Source of the DNA: an uncultured Nitrososphaeria archaeon
GTDB lineage: Archaea > Thermoproteota > Nitrososphaeria_A > Caldarchaeales > Wolframiiraptoraceae
Assembly: GCA_964451435.1 (NCBI GenBank)
Contig: CAYVHW010000001.1
Coordinates: forward strand, 740-64,739
DNA: 64,000 bases
Direction of reading: 5' to 3'
Below the pieces are notes generated by a model that saw nothing but the letters and a program-made list of their open reading frames with translations, was not told the origin of the DNA and did not search any database. The position numbers and the translations under genes are program-made. Each line of letters opens with the position of its first letter. Position 1 is the stretch's first letter. This document shows, in pieces, positions 44,534-58,898 of this stretch.

Positions 44534-45581
44534 TCATCGACATTATAGCCTTCTGGACGTGGAGCCTATTCTCGGCCTGATCGAATACCACCGAGTGGGG
44601 GCCATCGATCACCTCATCCGTCACCTCATATCCCCTATCGGCTGGGAGGCAGTGCATGTAGATCACATCCCTCTTCGCGACCTCAAGCTTCTCCGAGTCG
44701 CAGATCCAGTCCCTATTCTTCTCGAATAGCTCCTTCATCCCATCGAAGTCGGGCTTCGAGGCCTTCGGAGGAATATAGTTTAGGCTCAGCCAAGACTTTG
44801 GATAAACTACATCAGCGCCCTCGAAGGCCGCCTTCATATCATGGACTATCTCGAATGACCCGCCGAACTCATCAGCATACTTCTTACATTGTTCGATCAC
44901 CTTTGGATCTAGGTCGAATCCCTTTGGGTGAGCTAGGACGACGTCCATCCCAAACTTTGTCGCGACTAAGACGGCGCTTTGGGGGACGGCTAGGGGCTTC
45001 TCGACGCTTGGGGTGTATGCCCAGCTCATCACAAACTTCTTTCCCTCGACCTTCCCCAACTTCTCCTTAATCGTCATTATATCTGCCATGGCTTGGCATG
45101 GATGATACATGTCGCACTCCATGTTTATCACGGGGACATCGGCCCACCTCGCAAACTCTCTAATGATCCTATTCCCTCGGCCATAGATCCACTTAGCATG
45201 CTTCCCATAAATCCTAATGGCTATGCCATCACCATACCTTGAGAGAACCCTCGCGACATCGGCGATCCTCTCAGTCGTGTAAGCTATCTCATCTCCTGGG
45301 AGGGCTGGGGTGTAGATGGCGTCATGTGGGTCCAGAAAGTGGGCGTGGCCTCCGAGCTGCGTCATCCCAGCCTCAAAGCTATTCCTAGTCCTGAGAGATC
45401 TATTATAGAAGATCAGGAATAGAGTCTTCCCCTTGAGATATGGGTGCTCGACCTTCCTAAACTTCCTCTTCAAGTCCATGGCGGCGTCGAGGATTTGGTC
45501 AAGCTCCTCCCTAGTCCACTCAATCGTCGTTATCCAATCCCTACCACGATACATTCCAACATACTTGGGTAGCTCGGACAT
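44523..45581 (-). CDS. transcarbamylase-fold protein, non-canonical (YgeW-like/unknown specificity), paralogue A
   Basis: 352 aa. Carbamoyl-P motifs are present (SLRTR, HPCQ, HCLP), but the OTCase D..SMG motif is replaced by VYPKSW and no ATCase R-x-Q-x-ER is present. It is about 40 aa longer than OTC/ATC. Confidence 0.7.
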   Translation of the reverse strand: MSELPKYVGMYRGRDWITTIEWTREELDQILDAAMDLKRKFRKVEHPYLKGKTLFLIFYNRSLRTRNSFEAGMTQLGGHAHFLDPHDAIYTPALPGDEIAYTTERIADVARVLSRYGDGIAIRIYGKHAKWIYGRGNRIIREFARWADVPVINMECDMYHPCQAMADIMTIKEKLGKVEGKKFVMSWAYTPSVEKPLAVPQSAVLVATKFGMDVVLAHPKGFDLDPKVIEQCKKYADEFGGSFEIVHDMKAAFEGADVVYPKSWLSLNYIPPKASKPDFDGMKELFEKNRDWICDSEKLEVAKRDVIYMHCLPADRGYEVTDEVIDGPHSVVFDQAENRLHVQKAIMSMIMG

Positions 45582-45616: not shown

Positions 45617-47002
45617 TTAAGCTTTTCCACCTCCACGAATCGGGGATAATCTCTCTGGACGGCCTCTCTTAACATATTCTCCATATCCCTCGCGTCCAAG
45701 AACCTCTCCATCCCTATAGATTATCTCGCCTCTTAGGATGGTCATGTAGATCCTCCCCCTACACCTATACCCCTCATACGGCGTCCACCCAGATCTTTGA
45801 TGGAGTTCATCAGCCTTAATCATCCACTCACGGTTTAGATCGATCACGGTTAGATCCGCGTCCGAGCCTATCGCTATAACTCCCTTCTTGGGATAGAGCC
45901 CAAACCTCCTCGCGGGATTCTCGGAGAGTAGTCTAGCGAGATCCATGAGCGTGATCCTTCCCTGATTAACCCCCTCACTCAACATGAGTGGAAATAGGGT
46001 CTCGATCCCCGGCAGCCCGCTCCTTATCGGCCAAATATCACTCCATCCAGGCTCTCTATCTTCCTTGAATGTTGAGTAATGGTCTGTCGCAACCATATCT
46101 ATCAACCCACTTCTAAGACCCAGCCATAGAGCCTCCAAGTCCTCTCTCAATCTAAGGGGTGGGGTCATCTTGAGGTATGGGCCAAGCTTCTCAACATCAT
46201 CCCTCGTGAATATCAGGTAATGAGGGCATGTCTCACAGCTTATATTGACTCCACGATATTTCGCCTCCTCAATAAGCTTCAACCCCTCCATCGTCGTCAA
46301 GTGAACTATATGTATCCCGCATCCAGTCGCCCTCGAATAGGCTATAACCCTACCTATCCCCTCAACCTCCGCAAGCCTCGGCCTAGACTCATGGTATGCC
46401 ATCGGATCTCTCCTATCCATAGACTTTAGCCTCTCGGTGTAGAGGTCTACGAGGAATCCATTCTCAGCGTGGAACATGCATAGTCCCCGACCCTTAACCA
46501 TCTCCATAAGCCTCAAAATATCTCGATCGTCTATCATGTATGGCTTGCAGAGGAATAGCTTGAATGAATTGACTCCAAGATCTATCAAAGAGTTTGGATC
46601 GAATCCTTCTAAGCTCTGTATATTTCCCGCATGTAGGCCGAAGTCTATGCGAGACCATCTCTCGCCGGCCTCGATCTTTTCTCTCAAAGCATCGGTGGTG
46701 ATATACGGCGTATCGGTAGGCATCTCGATTATCGTCGTGACCCCTCCAGCGGAGGCCGCCAAGCTTATCGACCTAAAATCCTCTCTCGGCCCAAAGTGTT
46801 TTGGATCATAGGCGTGGACGTGGACATCTATCGCTCCTGGGAGCACGTATCTCCCATTCAGATCTATTTCAATGTCTCCCCTCGGTAGATGATTTATCGA
46901 CGCTATGGAGATAATCTGTCCTCGATCGATCGCAACCCCGGCCTCGAACACACCCTCTCTAAGGACGAGCCTACAGTTCTTCAATACTAGGTCGACGGTC
47001 AA
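45617..47002 (-). CDS. cyclic amidohydrolase (hydantoinase/dihydropyrimidinase/allantoinase family)
   Basis: 461 aa. Metal ligands DVHVH are present, and VNSFKLF is the NSFK carboxylated-Lys motif of DHPase/hydantoinases (absent in type I dihydroorotases). Confidence 0.7.
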   Translation of the reverse strand: MTVDLVLKNCRLVLREGVFEAGVAIDRGQIISIASINHLPRGDIEIDLNGRYVLPGAIDVHVHAYDPKHFGPREDFRSISLAASAGGVTTIIEMPTDTPYITTDALREKIEAGERWSRIDFGLHAGNIQSLEGFDPNSLIDLGVNSFKLFLCKPYMIDDRDILRLMEMVKGRGLCMFHAENGFLVDLYTERLKSMDRRDPMAYHESRPRLAEVEGIGRVIAYSRATGCGIHIVHLTTMEGLKLIEEAKYRGVNISCETCPHYLIFTRDDVEKLGPYLKMTPPLRLREDLEALWLGLRSGLIDMVATDHYSTFKEDREPGWSDIWPIRSGLPGIETLFPLMLSEGVNQGRITLMDLARLLSENPARRFGLYPKKGVIAIGSDADLTVIDLNREWMIKADELHQRSGWTPYEGYRCRGRIYMTILRGEIIYRDGEVLGREGYGEYVKRGRPERLSPIRGGGKA

Positions 47003-47060: not shown

Positions 47061-48095
47061 CTACTCATACAGTTTCTTACTCATGGTTAGGGCTAAGACC
47101 GCCATCTTGACGTATAATCCGTTCTCGGCCTGCTCGTAGATCACAGACCTCGGCCCATCCATAACCTCATCAGACGCCTCCTCACCCCTCAAGACTGGTA
47201 GGACGTGGGTGACTATCCCCTTCTTGTCCATTAGGTCGACGAGATCTTGGGTTAGACACCAATCCCTATATCTTCGATGGATCTCAAGCTCCCTCTCAAC
47301 CCCGAACCTAGACGCACCAATGCTCAATAGTTCCCAGCTCGCCCAGCTTCTCGGGAAGACTACATGAGCGCCTTCAATCGCTGGTTTAAGATCACTTGTT
47401 ATCTCAAGGCTTCCACCGCTCCTTTCCGCATTCTCCCTCGCCACCTTGACTATCTCTGGATCTAGGTTGAATCCGGGTGGATGAGCTACGACCACATCCA
47501 TCCCAAACCTCGTCATTATCAATAGCTCGGCCTGAATGCTGCATAGTCCTCTGAGCCTTGAGGCATAAGCCCACATAATCGTATACTTCTTCCCCTCAAT
47601 CTTTCCAAGCCTCTCCCTGACGGTCATAAGGTCTTGGATCGCTTGGGTTGGGTGATAGGTGCAGCATGCCATGTTTATCACAGGCTTCTCGGAGTGTCTC
47701 GCATACTCCATCACCGTCCACCTCCCAAGCCCATACCTGTAGTCTATGGCCTTGTCGAGGCATCGAACCCCTATCCCATCACCATATCTCTCATACATCT
47801 TCGCCACATCCTTCAACCTCTCCCCAAACCCTATCCTAAGCGTCGAGACATCGATATATGACATATGTCCTCCGAGCAAGTTCATCCCAGCCTCGAATGC
47901 TGCTCTAGTTCTGGTCGATGGGGCGTAGAAGATCGCGAAGAAGGTCTTATCCTTTAGAAACTTTGGGATCTTCTCCCCTCTCCTATGCATTTTCTTGAAT
48001 TCCGATGCGAGTCTTATCGCCTCCTCTATCTCCTCAACGCTCCAGTCTTGAGTCGTGATCAAGTCTCTACCATATAGATCCACACCTATCTTCAT
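47061..48095 (-). CDS. transcarbamylase-fold protein, non-canonical (YgeW-like/unknown specificity), paralogue B
   Basis: 344 aa with STRTR, HPTQ, HVLP and VFPRSW in place of the SMG motif. It shares the unusual features of paralogue A. Confidence 0.7.
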   Translation of the reverse strand: MKIGVDLYGRDLITTQDWSVEEIEEAIRLASEFKKMHRRGEKIPKFLKDKTFFAIFYAPSTRTRAAFEAGMNLLGGHMSYIDVSTLRIGFGERLKDVAKMYERYGDGIGVRCLDKAIDYRYGLGRWTVMEYARHSEKPVINMACCTYHPTQAIQDLMTVRERLGKIEGKKYTIMWAYASRLRGLCSIQAELLIMTRFGMDVVVAHPPGFNLDPEIVKVARENAERSGGSLEITSDLKPAIEGAHVVFPRSWASWELLSIGASRFGVERELEIHRRYRDWCLTQDLVDLMDKKGIVTHVLPVLRGEEASDEVMDGPRSVIYEQAENGLYVKMAVLALTMSKKLYE

Positions 48096-48212: not shown

Positions 48213-48701
48213 TTGAGGAGAACTCTCCTAATTGATGCGGAAAAGTGTACTGGTTGTAGACTCTGCGAACTGGTCTGCTCATTTCAACATTACAAGGTCT
48301 TTAATCCAAGGAGGTCTAGGATAACGGTGATAAGGGATGAGGAGAAGGGAGTATTCATTCCGATGACATGCTTTCAATGCGAAGATCCCCCATGCATGAA
48401 GACCTGTCCAACCCACGCGATCTATAGGGATGAGAATGGAGCGATTAGAATAGATTATGAGAAGTGTATAGGCTGTAAACTCTGCATAATGTATTGCCCA
48501 TTCGGCGGAATCTCGATAGATCCCGTCACCATGAAGGTGATAAAATGCGATCTATGCGGGGGAGATCCAGAGTGTGTGAAGTATTGTCCGAAGGGAGCCA
48601 TACAGTATGTTAGGGTGGATGAGGTTGGGGTCAAGAAGAGGATCGAGGGTGCCAAGAAGATTCATGAGAGGATTAAGGTGATCATGGGAGGTGAATCCTA
48701 G
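48213..48701 (+). CDS. 4x[4Fe-4S] polyferredoxin-like small subunit (AOR partner, WOR5/YdhY/AorA-like)
   Basis: 162 aa with four CxxCxxCxxxCP-type motifs (CTGCRLCELVC, CFQCEDPPCMKTCP, CIGCKLCIMYCP, CDLCGGDPECVKYCP). TTG start. Confidence 0.8.
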   Translation: MRRTLLIDAEKCTGCRLCELVCSFQHYKVFNPRRSRITVIRDEEKGVFIPMTCFQCEDPPCMKTCPTHAIYRDENGAIRIDYEKCIGCKLCIMYCPFGGISIDPVTMKVIKCDLCGGDPECVKYCPKGAIQYVRVDEVGVKKRIEGAKKIHERIKVIMGGES

Positions 48702-48703
48702 AG

Positions 48704-50638
48704 ATGTATAAGGGGTATGCGGGGAGAATACTCCGCGTAGACCTAACGTCTAGAAATGTCAAGGTGGAGCCGCTGCCGGATGGATTGGCGTTAAACTATC
48801 TGGGCGGGACGGGATTCGCCGCTAGAATCCTCTGGGATGAAGTGAACGCTGAAACAGATCCACTAAGCCCGGAGAACGTCTTGATAATAGCGACAGGGCC
48901 CGTGAATGGAACGGCCTTCCCACCATCCGGGAGATATATGATGGCCTCAAAGTCTCCCTTGACGGGTATCTGGAGCGAGTCCCACGTCGGAGGCCACCTT
49001 GGACCAGAGCTGAAGTACGCGGGCTACGATATGATACTCGTGAAAGGTAGAAGCTCTGAACCAGTATACCTGATGATCGATGATGATAGGGTTGAGGTTA
49101 GGGATGCCAAGAACATCTGGGGTAAGGATACGAGGGAGACCGTGAAGACCCTATGGGATGAGCTTGGAGATAGATCGTTTAAGATCGCATGTATAGGGCC
49201 TGCCGGCGAAAACATGGTCAAGATCTCCTCGGTTATCTCGGAGATGGGGAGGGCGGCTGCCAGAACAGGTATAGGAGCGGTCTGGGGTAGTAAAAGGCTT
49301 AAGGCCATAGCGGTCAGAGGGTCGAAGGACATCGAGGTGGCTGATCCCGATGGATTCATGCAGCTCGTTAAGGAGTCGATCCGAATGTGCACCGAGGAGT
49401 TCTTCGGGAAGGCGGCTCAAGACACGCTTGGAAAGTATGGGACTCCATGCTTGGTCGAGATGCTCAACTCGATTGGAAGGCTTCCGACAAAGAACCATTG
49501 GACAGGTGTCTTCGATAAGGCCAACCTAATTGGCGGAGAGGCCGTAAGGAGCAGGTATAGGTTTGCTCAAGTGCCATGCTTGGCCTGCGTGATCCAATGC
49601 GGATATATATCATATATTCGAGAGGGAAGATATGCTGGGACGATCACAAAGGGGCCTGAGTATGAGTCGATCTTTGCCCTCGGATCAAATTGTCTTGTCC
49701 CGGATATCGAGGCCATAATCCACATGAACATGCTCTGCAACCTCTATGGGCTCGACACGATCTCGACTGGGAAGACTCTTTCATGGGCGATGGAATGCTA
49801 TGAGCATGGACTCCTGACGAAGGATGATCTAGATGGGATGGAGCTTAGGTGGGGGGATCTAGAGGCCATGATAAAGCTGATAGAGAAGATCGCGAGGAGG
49901 GAGGGGGTTGGAGACATCTTGGCCGAGGGTGCTAAGAGGGCTTCGGAGAAGATTGGGAGGGGAACCGAGAAATACGTGATCCACATCAAGGGGATGGAGG
50001 TCTCAGGCCAAGATCCAAGAGCGCATAAATCCGCAGGCTTATCCCTCGCGATAGCGGTTAGAGGTGCAGATCATCTAAGAGCATTATCTTCAATAGAGGA
50101 GCTTGGATTCACCCAGATAGTCACCGATCGATATGGTGAGGATAAGGTCGAGGCGTTGAGCGATAGGCTTAGCGAGGAGTATAAGGGCTTCTTGATAAAG
50201 GATCTCGAAGACTTATACGCGATAACAGACTCCCTAATCGTGTGCAAGTATGGGACCATGTGGCCTCCAATCTACTACTTCGATCACTTCGCGAAGCTCA
50301 TACCACTCCTAACAGGGATGAAGGAGTACGGTGATGTGAGCTATGTTAGGCTCGTGGCCGAGAGGATATCGAATCTTAGGAGGTGTTTCAACGTGAGGGA
50401 GGGGATAACGAGAAGGGATGAGAACCTGCCCAAGAGATTTACCGAGGAGCCCATGCCCCATGGACCAGCGAAGGGCCATGTCTGCAACCTTGAACCAATG
50501 CTCCGAGAATACTATCAATATAGGAGGTGGGATTATGAGACGGGTCTACCATATAGGGAGACGTTGGAGGAACTCGGCCTGAAGGATGTCGCGGATGAGC
50601 TTGAGGCCATGGGGAGGATTAAGAGGAGGGAGGGCTAA
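48704..50638 (+). CDS. aldehyde:ferredoxin oxidoreductase family tungsto(molybdo)pterin enzyme, paralogue 1
   Basis: 644 aa. The N-terminus (MYKGYAGRILRVDLTS) and the CLACVIQC motif (C-x2-C-x3-C) match the AOR family, with AFOR_N/AFOR_C architecture. Confidence 0.85.
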   Translation: MYKGYAGRILRVDLTSRNVKVEPLPDGLALNYLGGTGFAARILWDEVNAETDPLSPENVLIIATGPVNGTAFPPSGRYMMASKSPLTGIWSESHVGGHLGPELKYAGYDMILVKGRSSEPVYLMIDDDRVEVRDAKNIWGKDTRETVKTLWDELGDRSFKIACIGPAGENMVKISSVISEMGRAAARTGIGAVWGSKRLKAIAVRGSKDIEVADPDGFMQLVKESIRMCTEEFFGKAAQDTLGKYGTPCLVEMLNSIGRLPTKNHWTGVFDKANLIGGEAVRSRYRFAQVPCLACVIQCGYISYIREGRYAGTITKGPEYESIFALGSNCLVPDIEAIIHMNMLCNLYGLDTISTGKTLSWAMECYEHGLLTKDDLDGMELRWGDLEAMIKLIEKIARREGVGDILAEGAKRASEKIGRGTEKYVIHIKGMEVSGQDPRAHKSAGLSLAIAVRGADHLRALSSIEELGFTQIVTDRYGEDKVEALSDRLSEEYKGFLIKDLEDLYAITDSLIVCKYGTMWPPIYYFDHFAKLIPLLTGMKEYGDVSYVRLVAERISNLRRCFNVREGITRRDENLPKRFTEEPMPHGPAKGHVCNLEPMLREYYQYRRWDYETGLPYRETLEELGLKDVADELEAMGRIKRREG

Positions 50639-51799
50639 ATGGTGGACATATCGGTTGAGATCGCCGGAATAAAGCTCAGAAACCCCGTCCTAACGGCGGC
50701 TGGCCCACCATCGAGGGATGCTGAGGCGTTGATCAAGGCGGCTGAGGGCGGTGCAGGTGGATTGGTCGCCAAGACTATAAGCTTGAAGCCCGCCGAAGTC
50801 CCCAGACCATGCCTATCGGTCGTGAATCGAGAATACTCGGTGAGAATCCCGGGATTCAAGACCTATACCACATGTGGGTTTCTGAACGTGGAGCTTTGGT
50901 CGGATATGCCATATCAGAGGTGGGTTGAGCGCGAGTATGCTCTTGTGAAGGAGAAGACGGGATTACCATTGATAGCCAGCATAGGATATACTCCGGAGGA
51001 GGTCTCGAAGCTTGGGAGGCTCGTTGAGAAGGCTGGGGTTGATGGGATAGAGTTCTCAACCCATTACATAGGATTCGATCCAAAGCCAATTAGAGAGGTC
51101 GCTAAAGCCCTTAGAGAATCCGTTGAGATCCCCATCTTCGCCAAGCTCAGCCCACATCTCCCAGACATAACCCCATTCGCAAAGGCGGTCGAGCCATACG
51201 TGGACGGCATAGTCGCGATAAACACCTATGGCCCAACCCTCCACATAGATATAGAGACTGGGAAACCGCTGCTCGGGGGGAAGAATGGATATGGATGGCT
51301 ATCGGGGCCGGCTCTAAAACCAATAGCCGTCAGATATATCGCCGATATAGCTAGAGCGGTTAAGGTTCCAGTCATAGGCGTCGGGGGGATAATGTCTGGA
51401 AAGGATGCAGTCGAGCACATAATGGCGGGAGCATCCGCGGTCGAGATATGTACTGGAGCGATCCTAGAGGGGCCGGGGATCTATGGGAGGGTTGCACATG
51501 AGATCGAGGAGTTCCTAAAGACCCATGGATACGACTCGATCGAGGACATAAAGGGTATGGCCTTGAAATGGCTCCCCGAGAAACCGTTAAGAACCACACC
51601 TCTACCGCCTAAGGTCGATCCAGAGAAATGCACGGGCTGTAGAATATGTGAGAGGGCATGCATCTATGAGGCGGTAGAGATGGTTAAGGATCCGAAGACT
51701 GGGAAGCTGATCGCGAGGACGATCGAGGAGAAATGCTATGGATGCGGGCTCTGCGTGAGTATATGCCCGACGAGGGCGAGATACTTCGAGGAGGAATGA
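50639..51799 (+). CDS. PreA-type dihydropyrimidine dehydrogenase homologue (DHODH/DPD FMN barrel + C-terminal 2x[4Fe-4S] ferredoxin domain)
   Basis: 386 aa with a PyrD-like TIM barrel (GFLNVEL...IGVGGI...). The C-terminus carries CTGCRICERAC...CYGCGLCVSICP. Its ATG overlaps the AOR1 stop (TAAATG). Confidence 0.7.
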   Translation: MVDISVEIAGIKLRNPVLTAAGPPSRDAEALIKAAEGGAGGLVAKTISLKPAEVPRPCLSVVNREYSVRIPGFKTYTTCGFLNVELWSDMPYQRWVEREYALVKEKTGLPLIASIGYTPEEVSKLGRLVEKAGVDGIEFSTHYIGFDPKPIREVAKALRESVEIPIFAKLSPHLPDITPFAKAVEPYVDGIVAINTYGPTLHIDIETGKPLLGGKNGYGWLSGPALKPIAVRYIADIARAVKVPVIGVGGIMSGKDAVEHIMAGASAVEICTGAILEGPGIYGRVAHEIEEFLKTHGYDSIEDIKGMALKWLPEKPLRTTPLPPKVDPEKCTGCRICERACIYEAVEMVKDPKTGKLIARTIEEKCYGCGLCVSICPTRARYFEEE

Positions 51800-51802: not shown

Positions 51803-52324
51803 TTGAAGCTCCTCATAATAGACTATGATCTATGCTCCGGTTGCAGGGTCTGCGAGCTCATATGCTCCATGGAGCACGCGGGGGTCTTTAAGCCATCGAT
51901 CTCAAGGATAAGGGTCGTGAAGAACGATAAGCTGAGCATAGACGTGCCTCTAGTCTGCATCCAATGCGAGAGCCCGGCATGTGTGAATATCTGTCCAGCC
52001 AAGGCATTGAGCAGGGATGAGGAGACCGGGATAGTGAGGCTGAACCCAGATAAATGCATCGGCTGCAACCTCTGCATATTGAAGTGCCCATATCATGGAG
52101 TCTTCAAGACCCCCGATGGAGTCGTCGTGAAGTGCGATCTATGTGGAGGAGATCCGAGATGCGTCAAATACTGCCCAACCGGAGCCTTACAATATGTTGA
52201 AGAGTCGCCCGAGACTAAGGCCAAGAGGGAGAAATCCAGGGAAAAGCTCCTAAAACTTCTCAAAGAATATGAGTTGGAGAAGCCCGCCTTGAGGATCGCG
52301 AGGGTTGGAGGGAGTGGGGCTTGA
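51803..52324 (+). CDS. 4x[4Fe-4S] polyferredoxin-like small subunit, paralogue 2
   Basis: 173 aa with four Cys motifs collinear with the 48213 protein. TTG start 3 nt after the PreA stop. Confidence 0.8.
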   Translation: MKLLIIDYDLCSGCRVCELICSMEHAGVFKPSISRIRVVKNDKLSIDVPLVCIQCESPACVNICPAKALSRDEETGIVRLNPDKCIGCNLCILKCPYHGVFKTPDGVVVKCDLCGGDPRCVKYCPTGALQYVEESPETKAKREKSREKLLKLLKEYELEKPALRIARVGGSGA

Positions 52325-54234
52325 AGTATAAGGGATATGTCGGCAGATATGCTTTAATCGATCTGACGAGGCAGTCGATCCATATCGAGCCATTAGATGA
52401 GGGGCTTGCGAGAAACTATATCGGTGGAAGCGGTTTCGCCGCCAGAATCCTCTATGACATGCTCAGACCCGGGATAGATCCATTGAGCCCTGAAAATGTG
52501 GTGGTTATCGCGACAGGCCCATTGACCGGAACCCTATGGCCCACCACTGGGAGATATATGATGGCCTCGAAGTCCCCGTTGACTGGGATCTGGGGTGAGA
52601 GCCATGCTGGAGGACACTTCGGCCCAGAGCTCAAGTATGCTGGATTCGATTATCTCGTGATAACTGGTAGGAGTGAGAGGCCGACCTACATCTACATCGA
52701 TAATGGGAGGATCGAGCTTAGGAGGGCTGAACATCTATGGGGGTTAAACGTCCACGAGGCGACGGACGCCATTAAGGAGGAGACCGATCCAAACGCGCAC
52801 GTGGCATGCATAGGTCAGGCGGGAGAAAACCTAGTTAGGTTTGCCTCGGTGATAAGCGACTATCATAGAGCTCATGGGAGGACAGGTGTGGGAGCTGTTT
52901 GGGGCAGTAAGAGACTCAAGGCCATAGCCGTTAGAGGGGATGGGGAGGTTGAGGTCGCGGACCTGGAAAAGTTCATGGAGCTCGTCGAGGATGCTCATGA
53001 AAGGGTTCTAAAGCATCCACAAGCTAGAGACCTCGCAAAGTATGGAACACCGTTGCTGGTTGGGTATAAGCAGTCGATAGGAGAGTTCCCTACAAAGAAC
53101 CATTGGACGGGAGTCTTCGATGGTGCGAAGGAGCTCATGGCCGAGGTGTTGAAGGAGAGGTTTTGGGTGAGGGATAGAGCTTGCTTCTCATGCAGAGTTC
53201 AATGCAAGAAGGTATACACAGTTAAGGAGGGAAGATATGCTGGAATAGTATCCGAGGGGCCTGAATACGAGGGAATATACTCATTTGGATCAAATCTGGG
53301 AAACTCCGACTTCCCATCGATCTTCTACGCAAACTACCTCTGCAACAATTATGGATTAGACGCTATATCGACTGGATGCGTGATCGCCTTCCTAACCGAG
53401 TGCGTTGAGCGTGGGATAGTCGGTAGGGATGAGGTTGATGGCCTCGATCTCAAATGGGGAAATCATGAGGCGTTCATCGAGCTAATCCACAAGATAGCGA
53501 AACGTGAGGGTATAGGAGATCTCTTGGCCGAGGGGGTTAAGAGGGCGTCTGAGAAGATTGGGAGAGGCTCAGAATACTACGCGATCCACGTAAAGGGATT
53601 AGAGGTCTCAGGCCAAGATGGGAGAACCCATAGATCGATAGGATTGAGCCACGCAGTCGCCAGCAGGGGCGCAGACCATCTAAGAGGGCTCGTCACCGTC
53701 GACCAGCTTGGATATGAGGAGATAGCGGCGAAGAGGTGGGGTAGGGATAAGCTCCCAGACATATGCAACCCATATAGTGAGAAGTGGAAGGCCTTAGCGG
53801 TCAAGACGACCGAGGATGTCTACGCGGTGAGGGATCTATTGATAGTATGCTGGTATACGGTCTCATGGCCTCCGATCTACTGGATCGAGGACTTCGCCAA
53901 GATACTTCCAGCCGCGACCGGAGAGGAGGCATTTGGAAGGGTTGAGGAGCTCTTGAAGATAGGCGAGAGGGTCGTGAATCTTGAGAGATGCTTCAACGTT
54001 AGGGAGGGGATAACGAGGAAAGACGACAGGCTTCCGAGGAGATTCATCGAAGAACCCATGCCCGAGGGGCCTGGAAAAGGTCAAACCGTCAATCTCGACT
54101 TAATGCTGGATGAATACTATGATTTGAGGGGATGGGATAGGAAGACCGGGATACCGAGGAAGGAAACCCTTGAGAGGCTTGGGCTTATCGAGGAAATCGA
54201 GGACTTGAGGAGGATGGGAAGGCTTCCAGAGTAG
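52321..54234 (+). CDS. AOR family tungsto(molybdo)pterin oxidoreductase, paralogue 2
   Basis: 637 aa. MKYKGYVGRY..., CFSCRVQC. Closely paralogous to AOR1. TTG start with a 4-nt overlap. Confidence 0.85.
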   Translation: MKYKGYVGRYALIDLTRQSIHIEPLDEGLARNYIGGSGFAARILYDMLRPGIDPLSPENVVVIATGPLTGTLWPTTGRYMMASKSPLTGIWGESHAGGHFGPELKYAGFDYLVITGRSERPTYIYIDNGRIELRRAEHLWGLNVHEATDAIKEETDPNAHVACIGQAGENLVRFASVISDYHRAHGRTGVGAVWGSKRLKAIAVRGDGEVEVADLEKFMELVEDAHERVLKHPQARDLAKYGTPLLVGYKQSIGEFPTKNHWTGVFDGAKELMAEVLKERFWVRDRACFSCRVQCKKVYTVKEGRYAGIVSEGPEYEGIYSFGSNLGNSDFPSIFYANYLCNNYGLDAISTGCVIAFLTECVERGIVGRDEVDGLDLKWGNHEAFIELIHKIAKREGIGDLLAEGVKRASEKIGRGSEYYAIHVKGLEVSGQDGRTHRSIGLSHAVASRGADHLRGLVTVDQLGYEEIAAKRWGRDKLPDICNPYSEKWKALAVKTTEDVYAVRDLLIVCWYTVSWPPIYWIEDFAKILPAATGEEAFGRVEELLKIGERVVNLERCFNVREGITRKDDRLPRRFIEEPMPEGPGKGQTVNLDLMLDEYYDLRGWDRKTGIPRKETLERLGLIEEIEDLRRMGRLPE

Positions 54235-54242: not shown

Positions 54243-55586
54243 ATGGCCTCTAAGACCATCTTGATCAAGGGTGGAACCCTGGTCACCATGAATAGGGAGA
54301 GGAGGATAATCAAGGATGGAGCCATATTGGTCGAGGATGGAAGGATAACGTCTATCGGAAAGGCGGATGAGTTTGGGGGAGAGAAGGCTGATAGAGTAAT
54401 AGATGCATCGGGAAAATACATCTTTCCAGGATTCATAAACTGCCACACCCACATGTTCCAAGTCCTCCTAAGAGATGTGGCCATGGACATGGTCCTCCTA
54501 GACTGGCTCAAGACCTCGATCTGGCCGAGTATAAGACATCTGAGGGAGGAAGACATCTACATAGCTGCGAAGCTCGGGATAGTCGAGAACATCAGATCTG
54601 GGGTGACGTGCATAGTCGATAACCAATATCCTAGAAACTATGAGCCGTCGATAAGGGCTATGCACGAGTCTGGGATAAGAGGAGTTCTAGCATGTGGATA
54701 CTATGAGATCAACGTCCCAGAGGATTTGAGGATGGATGCGGATAAAGCCCTAAAGATGTGCGAGGAGATGATCAGGAGATGGCATGGGAGGGATGAGGGG
54801 AGGTTGAGGGTGTGTCCGGCTCCGATGCATCCATGCTTCGCCTCAAAGGAACTCCTACTGAAGTCCAAGGAGCTCGCGGACAAGTATCAGACATATCTAC
54901 ACGTGCATACGGCTGAGAGCGTGAAGGATGTCGAGCTACTTAAGCAGATGACCGGGAAGACCGATGTAGAATACCTCCATGAGCTTGGAATACTCGATGA
55001 GAGATTTCACGCGGTCCACGCGGTTCAGGTATCGCCGGAGGAGATGAGATTATTCGCATCGGCTCACGCGAACATAATCCACAACCCAATCAGCAACGCA
55101 TACACCGGAGCTGGAGTCGCCCCAATTCCAGAATATCTAAGACTTGGATGTAACGTCGCCCTCGGGACGGATGGCCCAGCCAGCGGAGGGAATCACGACT
55201 TCCTCCAATCCATGAAGTTCACGGCCTTAATCCATAAGGGGTTTAAGAGAGATCCAACTGTTATGAAGGTCTCGGAGATATTGGAGATGGCGACCATAAA
55301 CGGGGCCAAGGCTCTTGGAATGGATGGTGAGATAGGATCTCTTGAGGCTGGGAAGAGGGCGGACCTAATAATATTGGATCTCCATAAGCCTCACACCGTA
55401 TACGTCCATGACCCGATCGCAAATCTAGTATATGCTGCGACGAGCGAGAACATCGAGACCGTCATAGTCGATGGCGAGATCTTGATGGAGGATAGGAGGA
55501 TAACCTACATCGATGAGGAGGAGGTCATGGCTGAGGCCTCAAAGGTTGCGGAGAGGTTGATGGAAAAGTTTTCAAGGCGTGGCTAA
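54243..55586 (+). CDS. COG0402 amidohydrolase (SsnA/cytosine-guanine deaminase/MtaD-like), paralogue 1
   Basis: 447 aa with an Amidohydro_1 metal site (INCHTHMFQ ... HVHTAE ... HAVH ... GTDG). Confidence 0.7.
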   Translation: MASKTILIKGGTLVTMNRERRIIKDGAILVEDGRITSIGKADEFGGEKADRVIDASGKYIFPGFINCHTHMFQVLLRDVAMDMVLLDWLKTSIWPSIRHLREEDIYIAAKLGIVENIRSGVTCIVDNQYPRNYEPSIRAMHESGIRGVLACGYYEINVPEDLRMDADKALKMCEEMIRRWHGRDEGRLRVCPAPMHPCFASKELLLKSKELADKYQTYLHVHTAESVKDVELLKQMTGKTDVEYLHELGILDERFHAVHAVQVSPEEMRLFASAHANIIHNPISNAYTGAGVAPIPEYLRLGCNVALGTDGPASGGNHDFLQSMKFTALIHKGFKRDPTVMKVSEILEMATINGAKALGMDGEIGSLEAGKRADLIILDLHKPHTVYVHDPIANLVYAATSENIETVIVDGEILMEDRRITYIDEEEVMAEASKVAERLMEKFSRRG

Positions 55587-55605: not shown

Positions 55606-56865
55606 ATGGCGTATGTAACCCATCTAAGATGTTCGAGGTGCGGCTCCGAGTATAGGCTTGAGGATGGGAAGGTTATCTGCGATAGGGATGACCTCGGACG
55701 CCTAGACATCTACTACGACTATGAGGCGATCTCAAGAACCCTGACGAAAGAGACTCTTGAGGAGAGAAGGGGCGGAGTCTGGAGATACTTTGAACTATTA
55801 CCGGTGTCTAGGAGGTCTTCTATCGTGAGCCTCGGCGAGGGTGGGACGCCGATGATAAGATCCGAACGCCTCTCCAAGCATCTCGGCTTAAAGAACCTAT
55901 ACCTGAAGGATGAGACGAGGAATCCAACAGCCTCCTTCAAGGATAGATCTATGACCGTTGGGGTATCGAAGGCGGTGGAGCTTGGGGTTAAGAAGACCTG
56001 CACAGCTTCGAGTGGAAATGCGGCCGCAGCCCTCGCAGCATACTCGGCTAAGGCCGGGCTAGAGTGCTATGCATTCGTCTTAGAGGAGGCGTCGATCGGG
56101 AAGATCTCCCAGCTCCAACTCTATGGTGCGAAGGTGTTTAGAGTTAGGAGGGTTGAGGAGGAGGTCGATCCAACGGTCCAGCTACTCAGACTCGTAGTCA
56201 AGAATTATGGCTGGTATCCATGCCCAAGCTTCGGGCCATTCAATCCATATCAGGTTGAGGGGCCTAAGACAATATCATATGAGATCGTTGAGCAGCTTGG
56301 CTGGAGGATTCCAGACTGGATACTCATCCCAACGGGCTCTGCGTGTCTCCTAGCCGGGATCTGGAAGGGGCTTAAAGACTACTATGAATTTGGCTGGATA
56401 GATCATCTTCCAAGATTGGCGGCGATCCAGTCTACTGGAAACGCGCCGTTCGTGAGGGCGTTTAAGGAGAGGATGGATCCGATGAATATAGAGCCTTGGA
56501 GGAATCCGAGGACGGTCGCGAGCGGGTTGATGGACCCATATCCATGGGATGGAGACGCTGGCCTAATCGCCTTGAAGGAGACTGATGGTGTGGCCGAGGC
56601 CGTTCCAGACAATCTAATCCTAGAAGCTCAGAAGCTCTTAGCGTCGATGGAGGGCGTGTTTGCTGAGCCATCTGGAGCGGCTGGCTTAGCCGGGGCCATG
56701 AAGCTCTTAGAGGATGGGGTCATAGATCCGAGTGATGAGGTCGTGGTCCTCGTGACCGGCAGCGGCTTAAAGGATCCAGATATAGTTAAGAGTATGTTCG
56801 CGGAGCCTCCGACGATAGGTCCAAGCCTTGAGGAGTTTACGAGGATGCTGAGTCGATTGGGCTGA
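55606..56865 (+). CDS. threonine synthase-fold PLP enzyme (ThrC family; function in this context uncertain)
   Basis: 419 aa. The N-terminus has Cys pairs (CSRCGSEY...VICDRDD) as seen in short-form ThrC. The PLP-Lys motif is ASFKDRSM, within a fold-type II PALP domain. Confidence 0.65.
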   Translation: MAYVTHLRCSRCGSEYRLEDGKVICDRDDLGRLDIYYDYEAISRTLTKETLEERRGGVWRYFELLPVSRRSSIVSLGEGGTPMIRSERLSKHLGLKNLYLKDETRNPTASFKDRSMTVGVSKAVELGVKKTCTASSGNAAAALAAYSAKAGLECYAFVLEEASIGKISQLQLYGAKVFRVRRVEEEVDPTVQLLRLVVKNYGWYPCPSFGPFNPYQVEGPKTISYEIVEQLGWRIPDWILIPTGSACLLAGIWKGLKDYYEFGWIDHLPRLAAIQSTGNAPFVRAFKERMDPMNIEPWRNPRTVASGLMDPYPWDGDAGLIALKETDGVAEAVPDNLILEAQKLLASMEGVFAEPSGAAGLAGAMKLLEDGVIDPSDEVVVLVTGSGLKDPDIVKSMFAEPPTIGPSLEEFTRMLSRLG

Positions 56866-56867: not shown

Positions 56868-58232
56868 TCATCTTATCCTATCTAGCTCGGGCTTAACCTC
56901 CTTCAACCTATCCCAGAGCCTCTCCGCAGACCTCTGAGCGATCCTCTCAACTTCATCCTCATCTACGGTTAAGACCTTTCTATCCCTCATCAAGATCCTC
57001 CCATCAACTATAACCGTCTGGACATCATCTCCATCAACCGTGTTCACCAGATGCCCATAAACGGTCTCGGCGTTGAGCGGGGTTGGCAGAACATCGGGTT
57101 TTATGATGATTATATCCGCGAGCTTCCCAACCTCAAGTGAGCCAACCTCCCCGTCAACGCCATAGAGTTCGGCGCCCTTGATGGTCGCCATCTCCAAAAC
57201 CTGTAGCGGCGTCATCATCCTCGGATCTCGATAATGGACCTTGTGGAGTAGGTAGGCTGCACGTATATTCTCGAATCCATCGAAGATGTATCCATCGTTT
57301 CCCAGCCCGACCCTGATCCCCATATCGATCATCTTGGGGATGGCCGCGACCCCAACCGCATTCAACATGTTGCTCATCGGGTTATGCGCGACATTCGTCC
57401 CAGTCTCGGCCAAGATCTTCAACTCATCATCGTTTAGATGAACGCAGTGAGCCAAGACCACATCCCTCCCAAGAAATCCCACATCTCTAAGCCTCTCAAC
57501 CGTCCGCTTCCCATATCTCTCCAAGTTATGATAGACGTCGACCAAGCCCTCAGACGTATGCATGGTTATCGGGACCTTCAGCTCATTAGCCTTCTCCCTG
57601 ACGAGCTTGAGGAGGTCGTCGGATACGGTGAAGCTTGCGTGTAAGCATAGCATCCCTCTGACCCTCCCCTTATCCCCAACTTTCTCAATGTATCTGATGC
57701 ACTCCTTAATCCCCCTCTCGCCCTCCTCCCTACTATGCCTCTCCGTGGCCTCGAATGAGATGAAACCTCTAATCCTGATCCTCTCAACCGCTTCACCGAT
57801 CCTATCCAAGACGCCCTCAATGGAGTTTGGGCCGGAGTAGGTGTCGGCGAATAGGGTCGTCCCAGTCTTCAAGAACTCTAGGCATCCTACCAAGGCGCTC
57901 GCGTATGCGTCGTCGTGGGTTAACGCCTCATCGACAGGCCACCAAATCCATTGGAGGTTTTGCATGAAGTCTGTTGGAGGCTTGATCTTGGCGAAAAGTG
58001 GAGCCCCTCTAAGGAGCATTCCGTAGAGATGGGTGTGGGAGCAGATCAATCCGGGCATCACTATGCATCCTTTAGCATCTATCTCCTCATCCGCCCTCAC
58101 TCCCGAGAACTCGGACATCTTCCCGATCTTGCTTATCTTTCGATCCTCGACCAATATCCCCCCATCCTCGATTATCCTCCGCTCCCGATCCATCGTGACG
58201 AGCAAACCATTCTTGATTAGGATACTACCCAC
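56868..58232 (-). CDS. COG0402 amidohydrolase (SsnA-like), paralogue 2
   Basis: Metal site LICSHTHLYGMLLRG. The N-terminus (ILIKNGLLVTMDRERRIIEDGGILVED) is collinear with paralogue 1. The GTG at 58232 is preferred over the ORF-track start at 58283. Confidence 0.7.
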   Translation of the reverse strand: MGSILIKNGLLVTMDRERRIIEDGGILVEDRKISKIGKMSEFSGVRADEEIDAKGCIVMPGLICSHTHLYGMLLRGAPLFAKIKPPTDFMQNLQWIWWPVDEALTHDDAYASALVGCLEFLKTGTTLFADTYSGPNSIEGVLDRIGEAVERIRIRGFISFEATERHSREEGERGIKECIRYIEKVGDKGRVRGMLCLHASFTVSDDLLKLVREKANELKVPITMHTSEGLVDVYHNLERYGKRTVERLRDVGFLGRDVVLAHCVHLNDDELKILAETGTNVAHNPMSNMLNAVGVAAIPKMIDMGIRVGLGNDGYIFDGFENIRAAYLLHKVHYRDPRMMTPLQVLEMATIKGAELYGVDGEVGSLEVGKLADIIIIKPDVLPTPLNAETVYGHLVNTVDGDDVQTVIVDGRILMRDRKVLTVDEDEVERIAQRSAERLWDRLKEVKPELDRIR

Positions 58233-58340
58233 ATTAAGCACCTCAATAACCAAAATGATCTTGATGATAGATAAGTGATTCATCTTAACATGGAAAAATC
58301 TTAAATCGGAGATAGGTCGAGATCATGAGGGTGTCGTCGA

Positions 58341-58811: not shown

Positions 58812-58898
58812 CTAGGATCCATTAGCTCGGTCAAAATCTTCGATTCAAGTTGGAGATTGGATAGATTTTATATGGGGCGATTCACCGACTTATTCGGC

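What the first reader, a model, noticed from the sequence alone, without database searches (positions are those of the whole stretch)
50639..51799. PreA-like dihydropyrimidine dehydrogenase subunit without a PreT (NAD(P)H/FAD) partner
The protein has the FMN TIM-barrel plus a C-terminal 2x[4Fe-4S] domain characteristic of PreA or the C-terminal half of eukaryotic DPD. No glutamate-synthase-beta-like PreT gene is nearby. Instead it is sandwiched between polyferredoxin genes. This would make it a ferredoxin-dependent pyrimidine-ring reductase/dehydrogenase, a configuration I am not aware of being characterised.
Basis: partly seen in the sequence, partly recalled or inferred. Interest (0 to 1): 0.6.

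Follow-up and report, generated by a model that had tools for sequence, protein, structure and literature searches.

The report
Archaeal ferredoxin-wired purine-ring reductase (UacX-type)
The gene is a real PreA-like iron-sulfur flavoprotein with no NAD(P)H partner, but it belongs to an already named family (DHase X1/UacX) tied to anaerobic purine breakdown; what looks new is that in many archaea tungsten enzymes sit where bacteria have xanthine-dehydrogenase-type molybdenum enzymes.

Summary
The ORF at 50639-51799 (+, 386 aa) is real. It has a DHO_dh FMN barrel plus a C-terminal 2x[4Fe-4S] domain. No PreT/GltD-like gene occurs in the 64 kb window or in 80 related loci. Its 5' neighbour is an AOR-family tungstoenzyme, not a polyferredoxin; three polyferredoxin+AOR pairs lie in the cluster. 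It is not PreA: it scores below the NCBIfam cut-off, and the DPD motif N-L-S-C(671)-P with its lid loop is replaced by an invariant E-F-S-T-H-Y. That motif and architecture are shared with bacterial relatives (35-42% identity), including one in a Clostridium uricolytic cluster. A 2013 phylogeny places these and Desulfurococcales homologues in clade 'DHase X1' with C. difficile UacX, the proposed ferredoxin-dependent 2,8-dioxopurine reductase. PreT-less, ferredoxin-dependent enzymes of this kind are therefore known (PydAc 2020, UacX 2025). In archaea the gene travels with SsnA-, HyuA- and YgeW-like genes, a PLP enzyme, carbamate kinase and YgeY. It travels with either AOR+polyferredoxin (39 of 80 loci) or XdhD/YgfM-like genes (3 loci), never both. 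Best reading: an archaeal reductive purine-degradation cluster whose dearomatising reductase takes electrons from Fe-S proteins. The role of the AORs is inferred only.

The parts
50639..51799 (+). The finding: DHase-X1/UacX-type FMN + 2x[4Fe-4S] reductase (PreA-like, no PreT). It carries the invariant E138-F-S-T-H-Y143 motif instead of DPD's E-L-N-L-S-C671.
48213..48701 (+). Polyferredoxin 1: 16 Cys, so 4x[4Fe-4S]; AorA/WorS-type electron-transfer subunit.
   Evidence: Pfam Fer4 families. Cys positions. Best PDB hits are 9mqx_E (WorS, E 6e-40) and 8c0z_C (AorA, E 2e-39).
48704..50638 (+). AOR-family tungstopterin subunit 1. Its stop codon abuts the start of the reductase gene.
   Evidence: AFOR_N/AFOR_C. 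Best PDB hit is P. furiosus AOR 1AOR, E 7.7e-141. Tyr312/Glu313/His448 and the four cluster Cys are conserved.
51803..52324 (+). Polyferredoxin 2 (16 Cys).
52321..54234 (+). AOR-family subunit 2 (53.6% identical to AOR1).
54243..55586 (+). Amidohydrolase of the guanine/adenosine-deaminase-SsnA group. Below all NCBIfam cut-offs. Possibly a purine deaminase.
   Evidence: best E. coli match is GuaD, 25%
55606..56865 (+). Fold-type II PLP enzyme, threonine-synthase-like. Candidate counterpart of YgeX (2,3-diaminopropionate ammonia-lyase). The role is inferred.
   Evidence: PALP E 5.5e-75; NF006050 367.7 bits against cut-off 303. PDB threonine synthases. It recurs next to the reductase in Desulfurococcales and Nitrososphaeria loci.
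56868..58283 (-). SsnA-like amidohydrolase, the expected ring-opening partner of the reductase.
   Evidence: Best NCBIfam family is SsnA (395.6 bits, cut-off 444). 31% identity to E. coli SsnA, E 1e-53. An SsnA-like gene is in 52 of 80 related loci and is the labelled gene next upstream in 23.
58341..58811 (+). Polyferredoxin 3.
58857..60812 (+). AOR-family subunit 3. A distinct orthologue group: median 61.6% identity to its orthologues against 48% to the paralogues.
47061..48095 (-). Carbamoyltransferase 2 (OTC/YgeW-like; below all NCBIfam cut-offs).
   Evidence: 27.8% to YgeW
45617..47002 (-). Cyclic amidohydrolase (hydantoinase/dihydropyrimidinase/allantoinase-like), the HyuA counterpart.
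   Evidence: 32.5% to HyuA, E 2e-61. Present in 30 of 80 related loci.
44523..45581 (-). Carbamoyltransferase 1 (YgeW 33.5%, E 7e-54). It scores as 'N-acetylornithine carbamoyltransferase' in NCBIfam.
38596..41807 (+). Two MoeA paralogues, the second fused to a PBP-like oxyanion-binding domain. Probably metal insertion for the tungsten/molybdenum pterin cofactor. Association with the cluster is only by proximity.

Best explanation
The gene encodes an archaeal member of the DHase-X1/UacX family. This is a PreA-shaped enzyme, an FMN TIM barrel plus a C-terminal domain with two [4Fe-4S] clusters, that never has a PreT/NAD(P)H module.

Proposed mechanism (inferred). Low-potential electrons enter through the two C-terminal clusters and reach FMN. 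FMN then reduces a C=C bond of an N-heterocycle, most likely 2,8-dioxopurine (isoxanthine/yanthine) or a close purine isomer. Protonation would come from the family-specific His142/Tyr143 that replace DPD's Cys671. The unstable dihydro product is opened at once by the SsnA-like amidohydrolase. The HyuA-like amidohydrolase, two YgeW-like transcarbamylases and a PLP enzyme then take it towards carbamoyl phosphate, ammonia and a C3 acid.

In this organism the electron donors are probably the AorA/WorS-type polyferredoxins of the adjoining AOR-family tungstoenzymes, so that the W sites and the FMN site share one Fe-S wire.

Shown here: the architecture, the absence of PreT, the motif replacement, family membership by sequence, and conserved gene neighbourhoods. 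Inferred: the substrate, the proton donor, the physical coupling to the polyferredoxins, and the role of the AORs.
For: Architecture and fold.

Not PreA or PyrD: the NCBIfam PreA score is 213.7 against a cut-off of 335, and the PyrD models are also below cut-off.

Motif: E-F-S-T-H-Y is invariant or nearly so in 24 archaeal relatives. E[ILV]STHY is present in 118 of 118 bacterial relatives. Strand beta-4 ends at S140 in the model. This supports the ungapped register S140~N668, H142~S670, Y143~C671, with a lid loop about 12 residues shorter.

Family: bacterial relatives (Thermosipho africanus, Kosmotoga, Clostridium sp.) are 35-42% identical over about 380 aa. The published tree puts T. africanus, C. 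difficile Q181U4 (= UacX) and three Desulfurococcales proteins in one clade, '1_Yge'/X1. The window protein is 53-56% identical to Desulfurococcales and Staphylothermus homologues.

Context, archaeal loci. Of 80 loci, an SsnA-like gene is in 52, HyuA-like in 30, YgeW-like in 22, carbamate kinase in 9, YgeY-like in 4 and XdhD+YgfM-like in 3. PreT is in none.

Context, individual loci. Thermogladius has a transcarbamylase, an AA_kinase (carbamate-kinase-like) gene and an SsnA-like gene upstream of the reductase. The Clostridium sp. locus is a complete C. difficile-type uricolytic cluster with the homologue between SsnA and the Mo hydroxylases.

Pathway biochemistry in bacteria.

Electron wiring. 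The gene order is polyferredoxin, AOR, reductase, with abutting or overlapping genes, in 34 loci. The polyferredoxins match AorA/WorS. These are known to wire W sites to a flavoprotein encoded next in the operon (PMC6365974; PMC12318220). A MoaD/ThiS-like gene follows the reductase in Asgard loci, as aorD/E follow aorC.
Against: No activity has been measured for any archaeal member. The papers read here report no activity data for UacX either. Its role is assigned from context and by analogy with YgfK.

I could not obtain the Q181U4 sequence. Its link to the window protein therefore rests on a published tree plus relatives I could fetch.

E. coli YgfK, the characterised 2,8-dioxopurine reductase, shows no detectable similarity to the FMN domain, so the functional transfer is by gene context only.

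The window lacks carbamate kinase, YgeY and YgeX homologues.

A uridine phosphorylase and a Bmp nucleoside ABC transporter lie 22-28 kb upstream. They would also fit pyrimidine use.

The AlphaFold model is of low confidence at residues 52-84 and 199-219, and no coordinates were available to check the positions of H142/Y143.

Ten of 33 loci with long flanks have neither AOR nor XdhD nearby.
Confidence: 0.6

Rival explanations
1. It is a ferredoxin-dependent dihydropyrimidine dehydrogenase, as the first reader proposed (PydAc-like). It would reduce uracil/thymine. The cyclic amidohydrolase would act as dihydropyrimidinase, and a transcarbamylase would release carbamoyl phosphate from N-carbamoyl-beta-alanine.
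For: The PreA/DPD fold and two of DPD's pyrimidine-binding Asn (N83, N195) are kept. A dihydropyrimidinase-like gene and transcarbamylases are adjacent. A uridine phosphorylase (TIGR01718, 308.7 bits against cut-off 280.3) and a Bmp nucleoside transporter are in the window. PydAc shows that such chemistry works with ferredoxin.
Against: Catalytic Cys671, Asn668 and the lid loop are absent. It has one ferredoxin domain rather than PydAc's two. A Pyd pathway does not need SsnA, a second transcarbamylase, a DAP-lyase-like PLP enzyme, XdhD/YgfM or three AORs, yet these are the conserved partners. The uridine phosphorylase is more than 20 kb away, behind unrelated genes.
Confidence: 0.12
2. It reduces a different N-heterocycle from 2,8-dioxopurine, for example xanthine, 6,8-dioxopurine or a hydantoin-type intermediate. 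The archaeal pathway would then be related to, but not the same as, the bacterial one.
For: The Mo hydroxylase that makes 2,8-dioxopurine in bacteria is replaced in most archaeal loci. The window has two transcarbamylases and no YgeY. Substrate specificity has not been measured for any X1 member.
Against: The motif is identical, E-x-S-T-H-Y, from Clostridium to Asgard archaea. The SsnA partner is also the same. Both argue for one conserved substrate.
Confidence: 0.15
3. It is mainly the third, flavin-bearing subunit of an AorAB/WorSL-type tungsten enzyme, taking the place of AorC. It would act as an electron outlet or inlet for aldehyde oxidation rather than as a dedicated pathway enzyme.
For: The operon order of polyferredoxin, AOR, reductase and then a MoaD-like gene mirrors aorA-aorB-aorC-aorD/E. 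The AOR keeps all canonical aldehyde-oxidising residues. WorSL nanowires are known to plug into flavoproteins.
Against: In 23 loci the gene follows SsnA with no AOR within 10 kb. Bacterial members sit in AOR-free uricolytic clusters. The substrate-side residues of the barrel (K45, N83, N195, STHY) are invariant, as expected for a catalytic site.
Confidence: 0.08
4. It is a dihydroorotate dehydrogenase or orotate reductase (class 1B-like).
For: Pfam DHO_dh. DHODB is the best small structural match (target TM 0.81-0.84). A dihydroorotase-like gene and ATCase-like genes are adjacent.
Against: It is below the cut-off of every PyrD model (TIGR01037 197.5 against 270; archaeal PyrD 134.4 against 330). 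There is no catalytic Cys or Asn-x-Ser-Cys-Pro-Asn motif. No PyrK-type partner was seen in the Pfam scans. The published tree shows that Desulfurococcus has a separate class 1B PyrD besides its X1 protein.
Confidence: 0.03

Closest known systems
UacX (C. difficile Q181U4) / 'DHase X1' clade of the DHODase-DHPDase superfamily (Barba et al. 2013, PMC4016543; Li et al. 2025, PMC12507026)
   Same: Architecture of about 360-400 aa: DHO_dh barrel plus one C-terminal 2x[4Fe-4S] domain. No FAD/NAD partner. The E-x-S-T-H-Y motif occurs in every fetched bacterial clade member. An SsnA gene is adjacent. It co-occurs with HyuA, YgeW/carbamate kinase, YgeY, a PLP enzyme and sometimes XdhD/YgfM. Desulfurococcales homologues are already in the published clade.
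   Different: Archaeal, at 35-42% identity to bacterial members. In most archaeal lineages it is embedded in polyferredoxin-AOR modules instead of next to Mo hydroxylases. Many archaeal members carry a 20-30 residue insertion after residue 60. No activity data exist for either.
PydAc, ferredoxin-dependent dihydropyrimidine dehydrogenase of Clostridium chromiireducens (Wang et al. 2020, PMC7332683)
   Same: A DPD-family FMN enzyme without FAD/NADPH domains, driven by reduced ferredoxin or methyl viologen.
   Different: PydAc has two ferredoxin domains (four clusters), sits in a Pyd cluster and reduces uracil. The window protein has one ferredoxin domain, lacks the catalytic Cys and lid loop, and sits in a purine-type cluster.
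E. coli PreA/PreT and mammalian DPD
   Same: The fold, the FMN barrel, the C-terminal cluster domain and two of the substrate-binding Asn. 31% identity to PreA.
   Different: No PreT in the window or in related loci. Below the PreA HMM cut-off. N668, S670 and C671 are replaced by S, H and Y, and the loop is about 12 residues shorter.
YgfK (DOPOR), the NAD(P)H:2,8-dioxopurine oxidoreductase of E. coli
   Same: The proposed same step in the pathway, coupled to SsnA.
   Different: Not detectably homologous in the FMN domain; hhalign matches only a Fe-S stretch. YgfK has its own FAD/NAD(P)H module.
AorABC of Aromatoleum aromaticum and WorABCSL of Acetomicrobium mobile (tungsten enzymes wired by polyferredoxin 'nanowires' to a flavoprotein)
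   Same: WorS/AorA-type four-cluster subunit plus an AOR-type W subunit, with a flavoprotein gene next in the operon and MoaD-like genes nearby. There are three WorSL-type pairs in one locus, recalling the 3:1 stoichiometry of WorABCSL.
   Different: The flavoprotein here is a DPD-family FMN enzyme, not AorC or BfuABC. No complex has been shown. The three AORs are distinct paralogues (49-54% identity) rather than copies of one subunit.

Membership tests
PreA (NAD-dependent dihydropyrimidine dehydrogenase subunit, NF006183) | DHO_dh FMN barrel followed by a C-terminal 2x[4Fe-4S] domain | tested here: met
PreA (NAD-dependent dihydropyrimidine dehydrogenase subunit, NF006183) | Score at or above the curated equivalog cut-off | tested here: not met
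   213.7 bits against a cut-off of 335
PreA (NAD-dependent dihydropyrimidine dehydrogenase subunit, NF006183) | Adjacent PreT (GltD-like FAD/NAD subunit with N-terminal clusters) | tested here: not met
   No hit in the window and none in 80 related loci
PreA (NAD-dependent dihydropyrimidine dehydrogenase subunit, NF006183) | Catalytic Cys on a mobile loop (DPD Cys671; N-x-S-C-P motif) | tested here: not met
   E-F-S-T-H-Y is found instead, and the loop is about 12 residues shorter
DHase X1 / UacX family | About 360-400 aa, DHO_dh plus one C-terminal 2x[4Fe-4S] domain, no FAD/NAD(P)H domain or partner | tested here: met
DHase X1 / UacX family | Sequence signature shared with clade members. E-x-S-T-H-Y is my own observation, not a published definition. 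| tested here: met
   118 of 118 bacterial relatives carry it, including Thermosipho africanus and a Clostridium sp. The window protein also carries it.
DHase X1 / UacX family | Gene neighbourhood: ssnA, hyuA, ygeW/yqeA, ygeY, a PLP enzyme, xdh genes | tested here: met
   Window: SsnA-, HyuA- and two YgeW-like genes plus a PLP enzyme. Family level. Published description.
DHase X1 / UacX family | Phylogenetic placement in one clade with C. difficile Q181U4 | tested here: inconclusive
   The published tree places Desulfurococcales homologues and T. africanus with Q181U4. The window sequence itself was not placed, because Q181U4 could not be fetched and the stored alignment is truncated.
DHase X1 / UacX family | Ferredoxin/viologen-dependent reduction of 2,8-dioxopurine coupled to SsnA | not testable with these tools
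   This needs biochemistry. The papers read report no UacX activity data either.
PydAc (ferredoxin-dependent DPD) | FMN domain with two ferredoxin domains (four clusters) in one ORF or two adjacent ORFs of the DPD type | tested here: not met
   Only the C-terminal domain is present (8 Cys). The N-terminus starts directly with the barrel. PydAc description.
PydAc (ferredoxin-dependent DPD) | Location in a Pyd (pydB/pydC) cluster and uracil reduction | tested here: inconclusive
   A dihydropyrimidinase-like gene is present, but no beta-ureidopropionase was identified. The cluster content fits the purine pathway better. Activity is not testable.
Class 1B dihydroorotate dehydrogenase (PyrD/PyrK) | Score above the PyrD model cut-offs, catalytic Cys, and a PyrK partner | tested here: not met
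   TIGR01037 197.5 against 270; NF041011 134.4 against 330. No Cys motif. No PyrK-type domain in the Pfam scans.
AorAB / WorSL tungsten-enzyme modules (for the neighbours) | Small subunit with 16 Cys (4x[4Fe-4S]) encoded directly upstream of an AFOR_N/AFOR_C subunit that has conserved cluster Cys and the Glu313/His448 equivalents | tested here: met
AorAB / WorSL tungsten-enzyme modules (for the neighbours) | Physical complex with, and electron transfer to, the flavoprotein encoded downstream | not testable with these tools
   Only gene order and abutting or overlapping reading frames are available.

The most novel reading that the evidence does not exclude
The three AOR-family paralogues are tungsten-dependent purine hydroxylases/dehydroxylases. 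They would replace the xanthine-dehydrogenase-family Mo enzymes (XdhD/DOPDH and relatives) in archaea.

Their AorA/WorS-type polyferredoxins would wire them to the UacX-type FMN reductase in one electron circuit. For example, two ring hydroxylations, one C6 dehydroxylation and one C=C reduction would convert hypoxanthine to dihydro-2,8-dioxopurine with no net electron demand.

This would be the first non-aldehyde, heterocycle-directed physiological role for canonical AOR-clade enzymes. It would also be the first anaerobic purine-degradation pathway described in archaea, including Asgard, Bathyarchaeia, Hadarchaeota and Thermoproteota.
Probability: 0.3. Interest if true: 0.85.

Novelty: new variant of a known kind. 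Interest (0 to 1): 0.6.

Why it matters
The locus, however, points to three things that the literature I could search does not mention.

1. A reductive purine-degradation gene set is widespread in uncultured archaea. Relatives occur in 484 species-level genomes. The best 80 are all archaeal and include Asgard lineages.

2. In these archaea, polyferredoxin-AOR tungsten modules occupy the place that Mo hydroxylases hold in bacteria, and the two are mutually exclusive. This gives a concrete, testable function for AOR/WOR clades. A 2026 survey states that the physiological roles of most such clades are unknown (abstract).

3. A conserved E-x-S-T-H-Y active-site signature separates the X1/UacX enzymes from DPD and DHODH. 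It predicts a Tyr/His proton donor and an open active site.

The pathway also offers two transcarbamylases for a diureido intermediate. That would mean up to two carbamoyl phosphates, and potentially two ATP, per purine.

Tried and rejected
1. Fetching the UacX (Q181U4) sequence failed. It is not in the supplements of PMC12507026. The alignment of Barba et al. is stored truncated and lacks the X1 clade. I substituted bacterial relatives found with P0135.

2. Foldseek against AFDB50 was not available on the machine.

3. A profile comparison with E. coli YgfK matched only a Fe-S stretch (probability 73%). No homology argument to the characterised reductase is therefore possible.

4. Looking up names for the 'E-L-x-V-S-Y' subgroup of representatives gave only unnamed MAG proteins.

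5. The Wolframiiraptor paper and the WOR-classification paper do not contain any of the words dihydroorotate, purine, pyrimidine or amidohydrolase.

6. I considered true PreA, PyrD (class 1B) and PydAc membership and rejected each. The reasons are the HMM cut-offs, the missing Cys motif, and the missing partners or domains.

7. I considered a BamB-like dearomatising role for the AORs. I did not pursue it, because AOR1 is far closer to P. furiosus AOR (E 8e-141) than to BamB (E 3e-72) and keeps the aldehyde-oxidising residues.

8. The gapped alignments from HMMER and BLAST around the motif disagree with each other. I preferred the ungapped register because the model's strand beta-4 ends at S140. 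Without coordinates this remains an inference.
Full report
**Observation**

The ORF at 50639-51799 (+) encodes 386 aa. Its ATG follows directly on the stop of the upstream gene. Pfam finds DHO_dh (E 2.9e-37) and two Fer4 motifs at residues 323-381. The eight Cys at 331/334/337/341 and 366/369/372/376 are invariant in 24 relatives.

The best solved relative is pig DPD, matching both its FMN domain (530-818) and its C-terminal cluster domain (912-998). E. coli PreA is 31% identical over 401 columns. An AlphaFold model (mean pLDDT 79.3; low at residues 52-84 and 199-219) hits DPD first (Foldseek E 6e-26) and then DHODB (target TM 0.81-0.84). The 'PreA-like' description is correct.

'No PreT nearby' is also correct. 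tblastn with E. coli PreT, YgfT and YgfK finds nothing in 64 kb except the ferredoxin part of YgfT on three small Fe-S proteins. Pfam scans covered 57 ORFs, namely every non-overlapped ORF of at least 120 aa. They show no GltD/Pyr_redox_2-type protein.

'Sandwiched between polyferredoxins' is not accurate. The gene order is polyferredoxin (48213-48701), AOR-family protein (48704-50638), the reductase, polyferredoxin (51803-52324), then AOR (52321-54234). A third pair lies at 58341-60812.

**It is not PreA, PyrD or PydAc**

The NCBIfam PreA model scores 213.7 bits against a cut-off of 335. All PyrD models are below cut-off as well.

At the position of DPD's E666-L-N668-L-S670-C671-P, the protein has E138-F-S-T-H-Y143, followed by a loop about 12 residues shorter. 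E138, S140, H142 and Y143 are invariant, and T141 nearly so, in relatives from Asgard, Bathyarchaeia, Thermoproteota and others. The model's strand beta-4 ends at S140. This favours the ungapped register S140~N668, H142~S670, Y143~C671. That register is an inference, because no coordinates were available. DPD's catalytic acid and one pyrimidine-binding Asn are therefore gone, while K45, N83 and N195 are kept.

PydAc, the characterised ferredoxin-dependent DPD, has two ferredoxin domains. This protein has one.

**Family**

- A word-indexed search found 5852 relatives at E <= 1e-10.
- A pattern scan of species-representative genomes found 484 encoding loci. The best 80 are all archaeal. The closest (97%) is a 'Thaumarchaeota' MAG, AUK039.
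- An exhaustive profile search found 932 50%-identity cluster representatives at E <= 1e-30. Some STHY-bearing clusters are bacterial.
- Searching with one of them (P0135) gave Thermosipho, Kosmotoga, Petrotogales, Izemoplasmatales and Clostridium proteins of about 360 aa.
- These are 35-42% identical to the window protein over about 380 aa. All 118 carry E[ILV]STHY.

Barba et al. 2013 described a clade 'DHase X1' (labelled '1_Yge' in their tree) of the DHODase/DHPDase superfamily. They found it next to hyuA, ygeW, ygeY, ssnA, xdhABC, a xanthine permease and yqeA. Their tree file places three groups in this clade:

- C. difficile Q181U4;
- Thermosipho africanus;
- three Desulfurococcales proteins (Desulfurococcus, Thermosphaera, Staphylothermus).

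Q181U4 is the protein that Li et al. 2025 named UacX. They describe it as the FAD-less replacement of YgfK in the C. difficile uricolytic cluster, 'likely relying on Fdx'. The window protein is 53-56% identical to Desulfurococcales and Staphylothermus homologues. I therefore file it in X1/UacX. The caveat is that I could not fetch Q181U4 itself.

**Gene context**

Counts across the 80 related loci, each with up to +/-10 kb of flank:

| Neighbour | Loci |
|---|---|
| AOR-family gene as the labelled gene next upstream, same strand | 34 |
| SsnA-like gene as the labelled gene next upstream, same strand | 23 |
| SsnA-like, anywhere in the locus | 52 |
| HyuA-like | 30 |
| YgeW-like transcarbamylase | 22 |
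| Carbamate kinase (39-51% to YqeA) | 9 |
| YgeY-like | 4 |
| XdhD plus YgfM-like | 3 |
| PreT-like | 0 |
| AOR-family, anywhere in the locus | 39 |
| Polyferredoxin | 36 |

Single loci make the pattern concrete.

- One Desulfurococcales locus (L065) carries HyuA-, deaminase-, two YgeW-, YqeA-, SsnA-, X1-, PLP- and YgeY-like genes in a row.
- Thermogladius has a transcarbamylase, an AA_kinase gene, a transporter, an SsnA-like gene and then X1.
- Clostridium sp. SHJSY1 has a full C. difficile-type cluster. The order is PALP, M20, an Amidohydro_3 (UacY-like) gene, SsnA-like, X1, Mo hydroxylases, XdhC and a xanthine permease.

In the window itself, E. coli queries match as follows:

- SsnA matches 56868-58283 (31%, E 1e-53).
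- HyuA matches 45617-47002 (32.5%).
- YgeW matches 44523-45581 (33.5%) and 47061-48095 (27.8%).
- GuaD best matches 54243-55586.

XdhD, YgeX, YgeY and YqeA homologues are absent from the window. A threonine-synthase-like PLP enzyme (55606-56865) recurs with X1 in several lineages. It could take YgeX's place; this is inferred.

The bacterial pathway has been reconstituted:

1. Urate is converted to 2,8-dioxopurine by XdhD/DOPDH.
2. The ring is reduced by YgfK.
3. SsnA opens the ring, and the reduction is only seen when coupled to this step.
4. HyuA acts next.
5. YgeW, with YqeA yielding ATP, and YgeY remove the two ureido groups.
6. YgeX converts 2,3-diaminopropionate to pyruvate.

**The tungsten modules**

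AOR1 is closest to P. furiosus AOR (E 7.7e-141). It keeps Tyr312, Glu313, His448 and the four cluster Cys. The three AORs are 49-54% identical to each other.

The small proteins each have 16-17 Cys. They match WorS of A. mobile WorABCSL (9mqx_E, E 6e-40) and AorA (8c0z_C, E 2e-39). In AorABC and WorABCSL such subunits form Fe-S wires from the W sites to a flavoprotein. In AorABC the flavoprotein gene (aorC) follows aorAB directly and is itself followed by MoaD-like genes. Here the X1 gene sits in that operon position, abutting or overlapping the AOR gene. In Asgard loci a ThiS/MoaD-like gene follows it.

AOR (39 loci) and XdhD/YgfM (3 Desulfurococcaceae loci) never co-occur. Among 33 loci with at least 6 kb on both sides, 21 have AOR, 2 have XdhD and 10 have neither.

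Physical coupling to the polyferredoxins is inferred from gene order. So is the idea that the AORs carry out the purine (de)hydroxylations done by Mo enzymes in bacteria. The second idea is weakened by the fully canonical aldehyde-type active site.

**Mechanism proposed**

Electrons from low-potential Fe-S donors enter the two C-terminal clusters and reduce FMN. The donors here would be the adjoining polyferredoxins, and free ferredoxin in lineages without AOR. FMN delivers a hydride to a C=C bond of a dioxopurine-type substrate. That substrate binds in an active site opened by the loop deletion. His142 or Tyr143 supplies the proton. SsnA pulls the reaction by ring opening.

Two transcarbamylases would fit phosphorolysis of both ureido groups of a 2,3-diureidopropionate-type intermediate. 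The window has no YgeY.

All chemical steps are inferred. Even UacX has no activity data in the texts I read.

**Rivals**

There is a dihydropyrimidinase-like neighbour. A uridine phosphorylase and a Bmp transporter lie at 21980-28107. But it leaves SsnA, the second transcarbamylase, the PLP enzyme, XdhD/YgfM and the AORs unexplained, and it conflicts with the lost Cys and loop.
- *A different heterocycle as substrate.* This cannot be excluded.
- *A pure 'AorC-like' electron-outlet role.* This is unlikely because many members occur without AOR.
- *DHODH.* This is excluded by model cut-offs and motifs.

**Novelty**

The PreT-less, ferredoxin-dependent configuration is known (PydAc, UacX, DHase X1). 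Searches of the held literature found no mention of archaea or tungsten in connection with this pathway. They also found no mention of purines in the WOR-classification or Wolframiiraptor papers.

I rate the locus as a new variant of a known kind. The open and testable question is what the AOR modules do.

Noticed in passing
window 38596-39864 and 39861-41807 (+): Two tandem MoeA paralogues. The second is fused to a PBP-like/SBP_bac_11 oxyanion-binding domain. They lie about 3 kb upstream of the cluster, which fits dedicated tungstate insertion for the three AORs.
   Followed up: partly
window 21980-28107 (+): A uridine phosphorylase (TIGR01718, above cut-off) is followed by a Bmp/PnrA-type nucleoside ABC transporter: a double ATPase, a Bmp binding protein and two permeases. 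In Thermoproteota relatives (e.g. L015 1957-7138) a similar-looking ABC transporter set (ATPase, two permeases, a binding protein; assigned by eye, no domain scan) lies directly beside the reductase cluster.
   Followed up: partly
L061 2064-5902, L072 2241-6040, L077 12351-16185: Three Desulfurococcaceae loci carry XdhD-like and YgfM-like genes, plus a small ORF between them, next to the X1 cluster. They lack AOR. No locus has both types of enzyme.
   Followed up: yes
L088 5846-6127 and 11204-11491; a family of about 97-aa ORFs in 24 loci: ThiS/MoaD-like proteins ending in Gly-Gly are encoded right after the reductase gene in Asgard loci. This is reminiscent of aorD/aorE after aorC.
   Followed up: partly
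window 44523-45581 and 47061-48095 (-): The two transcarbamylases are 42.5% identical. Both keep the S-x-R-T-R and H-P-x-Q carbamoyl-phosphate motifs. Where OTCases have D-x-x-x-S-M-G (from memory), they read Y-P-K-S-W-L-S and F-P-R-S-W-A-S. The first passes the NCBIfam 'N-acetylornithine carbamoyltransferase' cut-off (322.3 against 288).
   Followed up: partly
published tree of PMC4016543 (supplement file 2): The X1 clade contains two Trichomonas vaginalis proteins, so a eukaryote appears to carry this anaerobic purine-pathway enzyme.
   Followed up: no
window protein residues 52-84; alignment A1 columns 80-100: A variable insertion after the V-P-R-P motif is 0 to about 30 residues long in different lineages. 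It is absent in Hadarchaeota and some Loki/Thor members and in bacteria. It is modelled with pLDDT below 50.
   Followed up: no
window 41871-42416 (+): A 181-aa ORF between MoeA and the cluster has only a weak precomputed hit to a putative 2-thiouracil desulfurase family (PF27735). My own Pfam scan found nothing at E <= 1e-5.
   Followed up: no
window 60830-61783 (-): A Zn-dependent alcohol/glucose-dehydrogenase-family gene lies convergent with AOR3. It is not among the recurrent neighbours in the related loci. It could pair with AOR3 in ordinary aldehyde/alcohol metabolism.
   Followed up: no
window 61841-63956 (-): ECF-type transporter genes (two ABC ATPases and part of a CbiQ T-component) run off the end of the window. 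The substrate is unknown.
   Followed up: no
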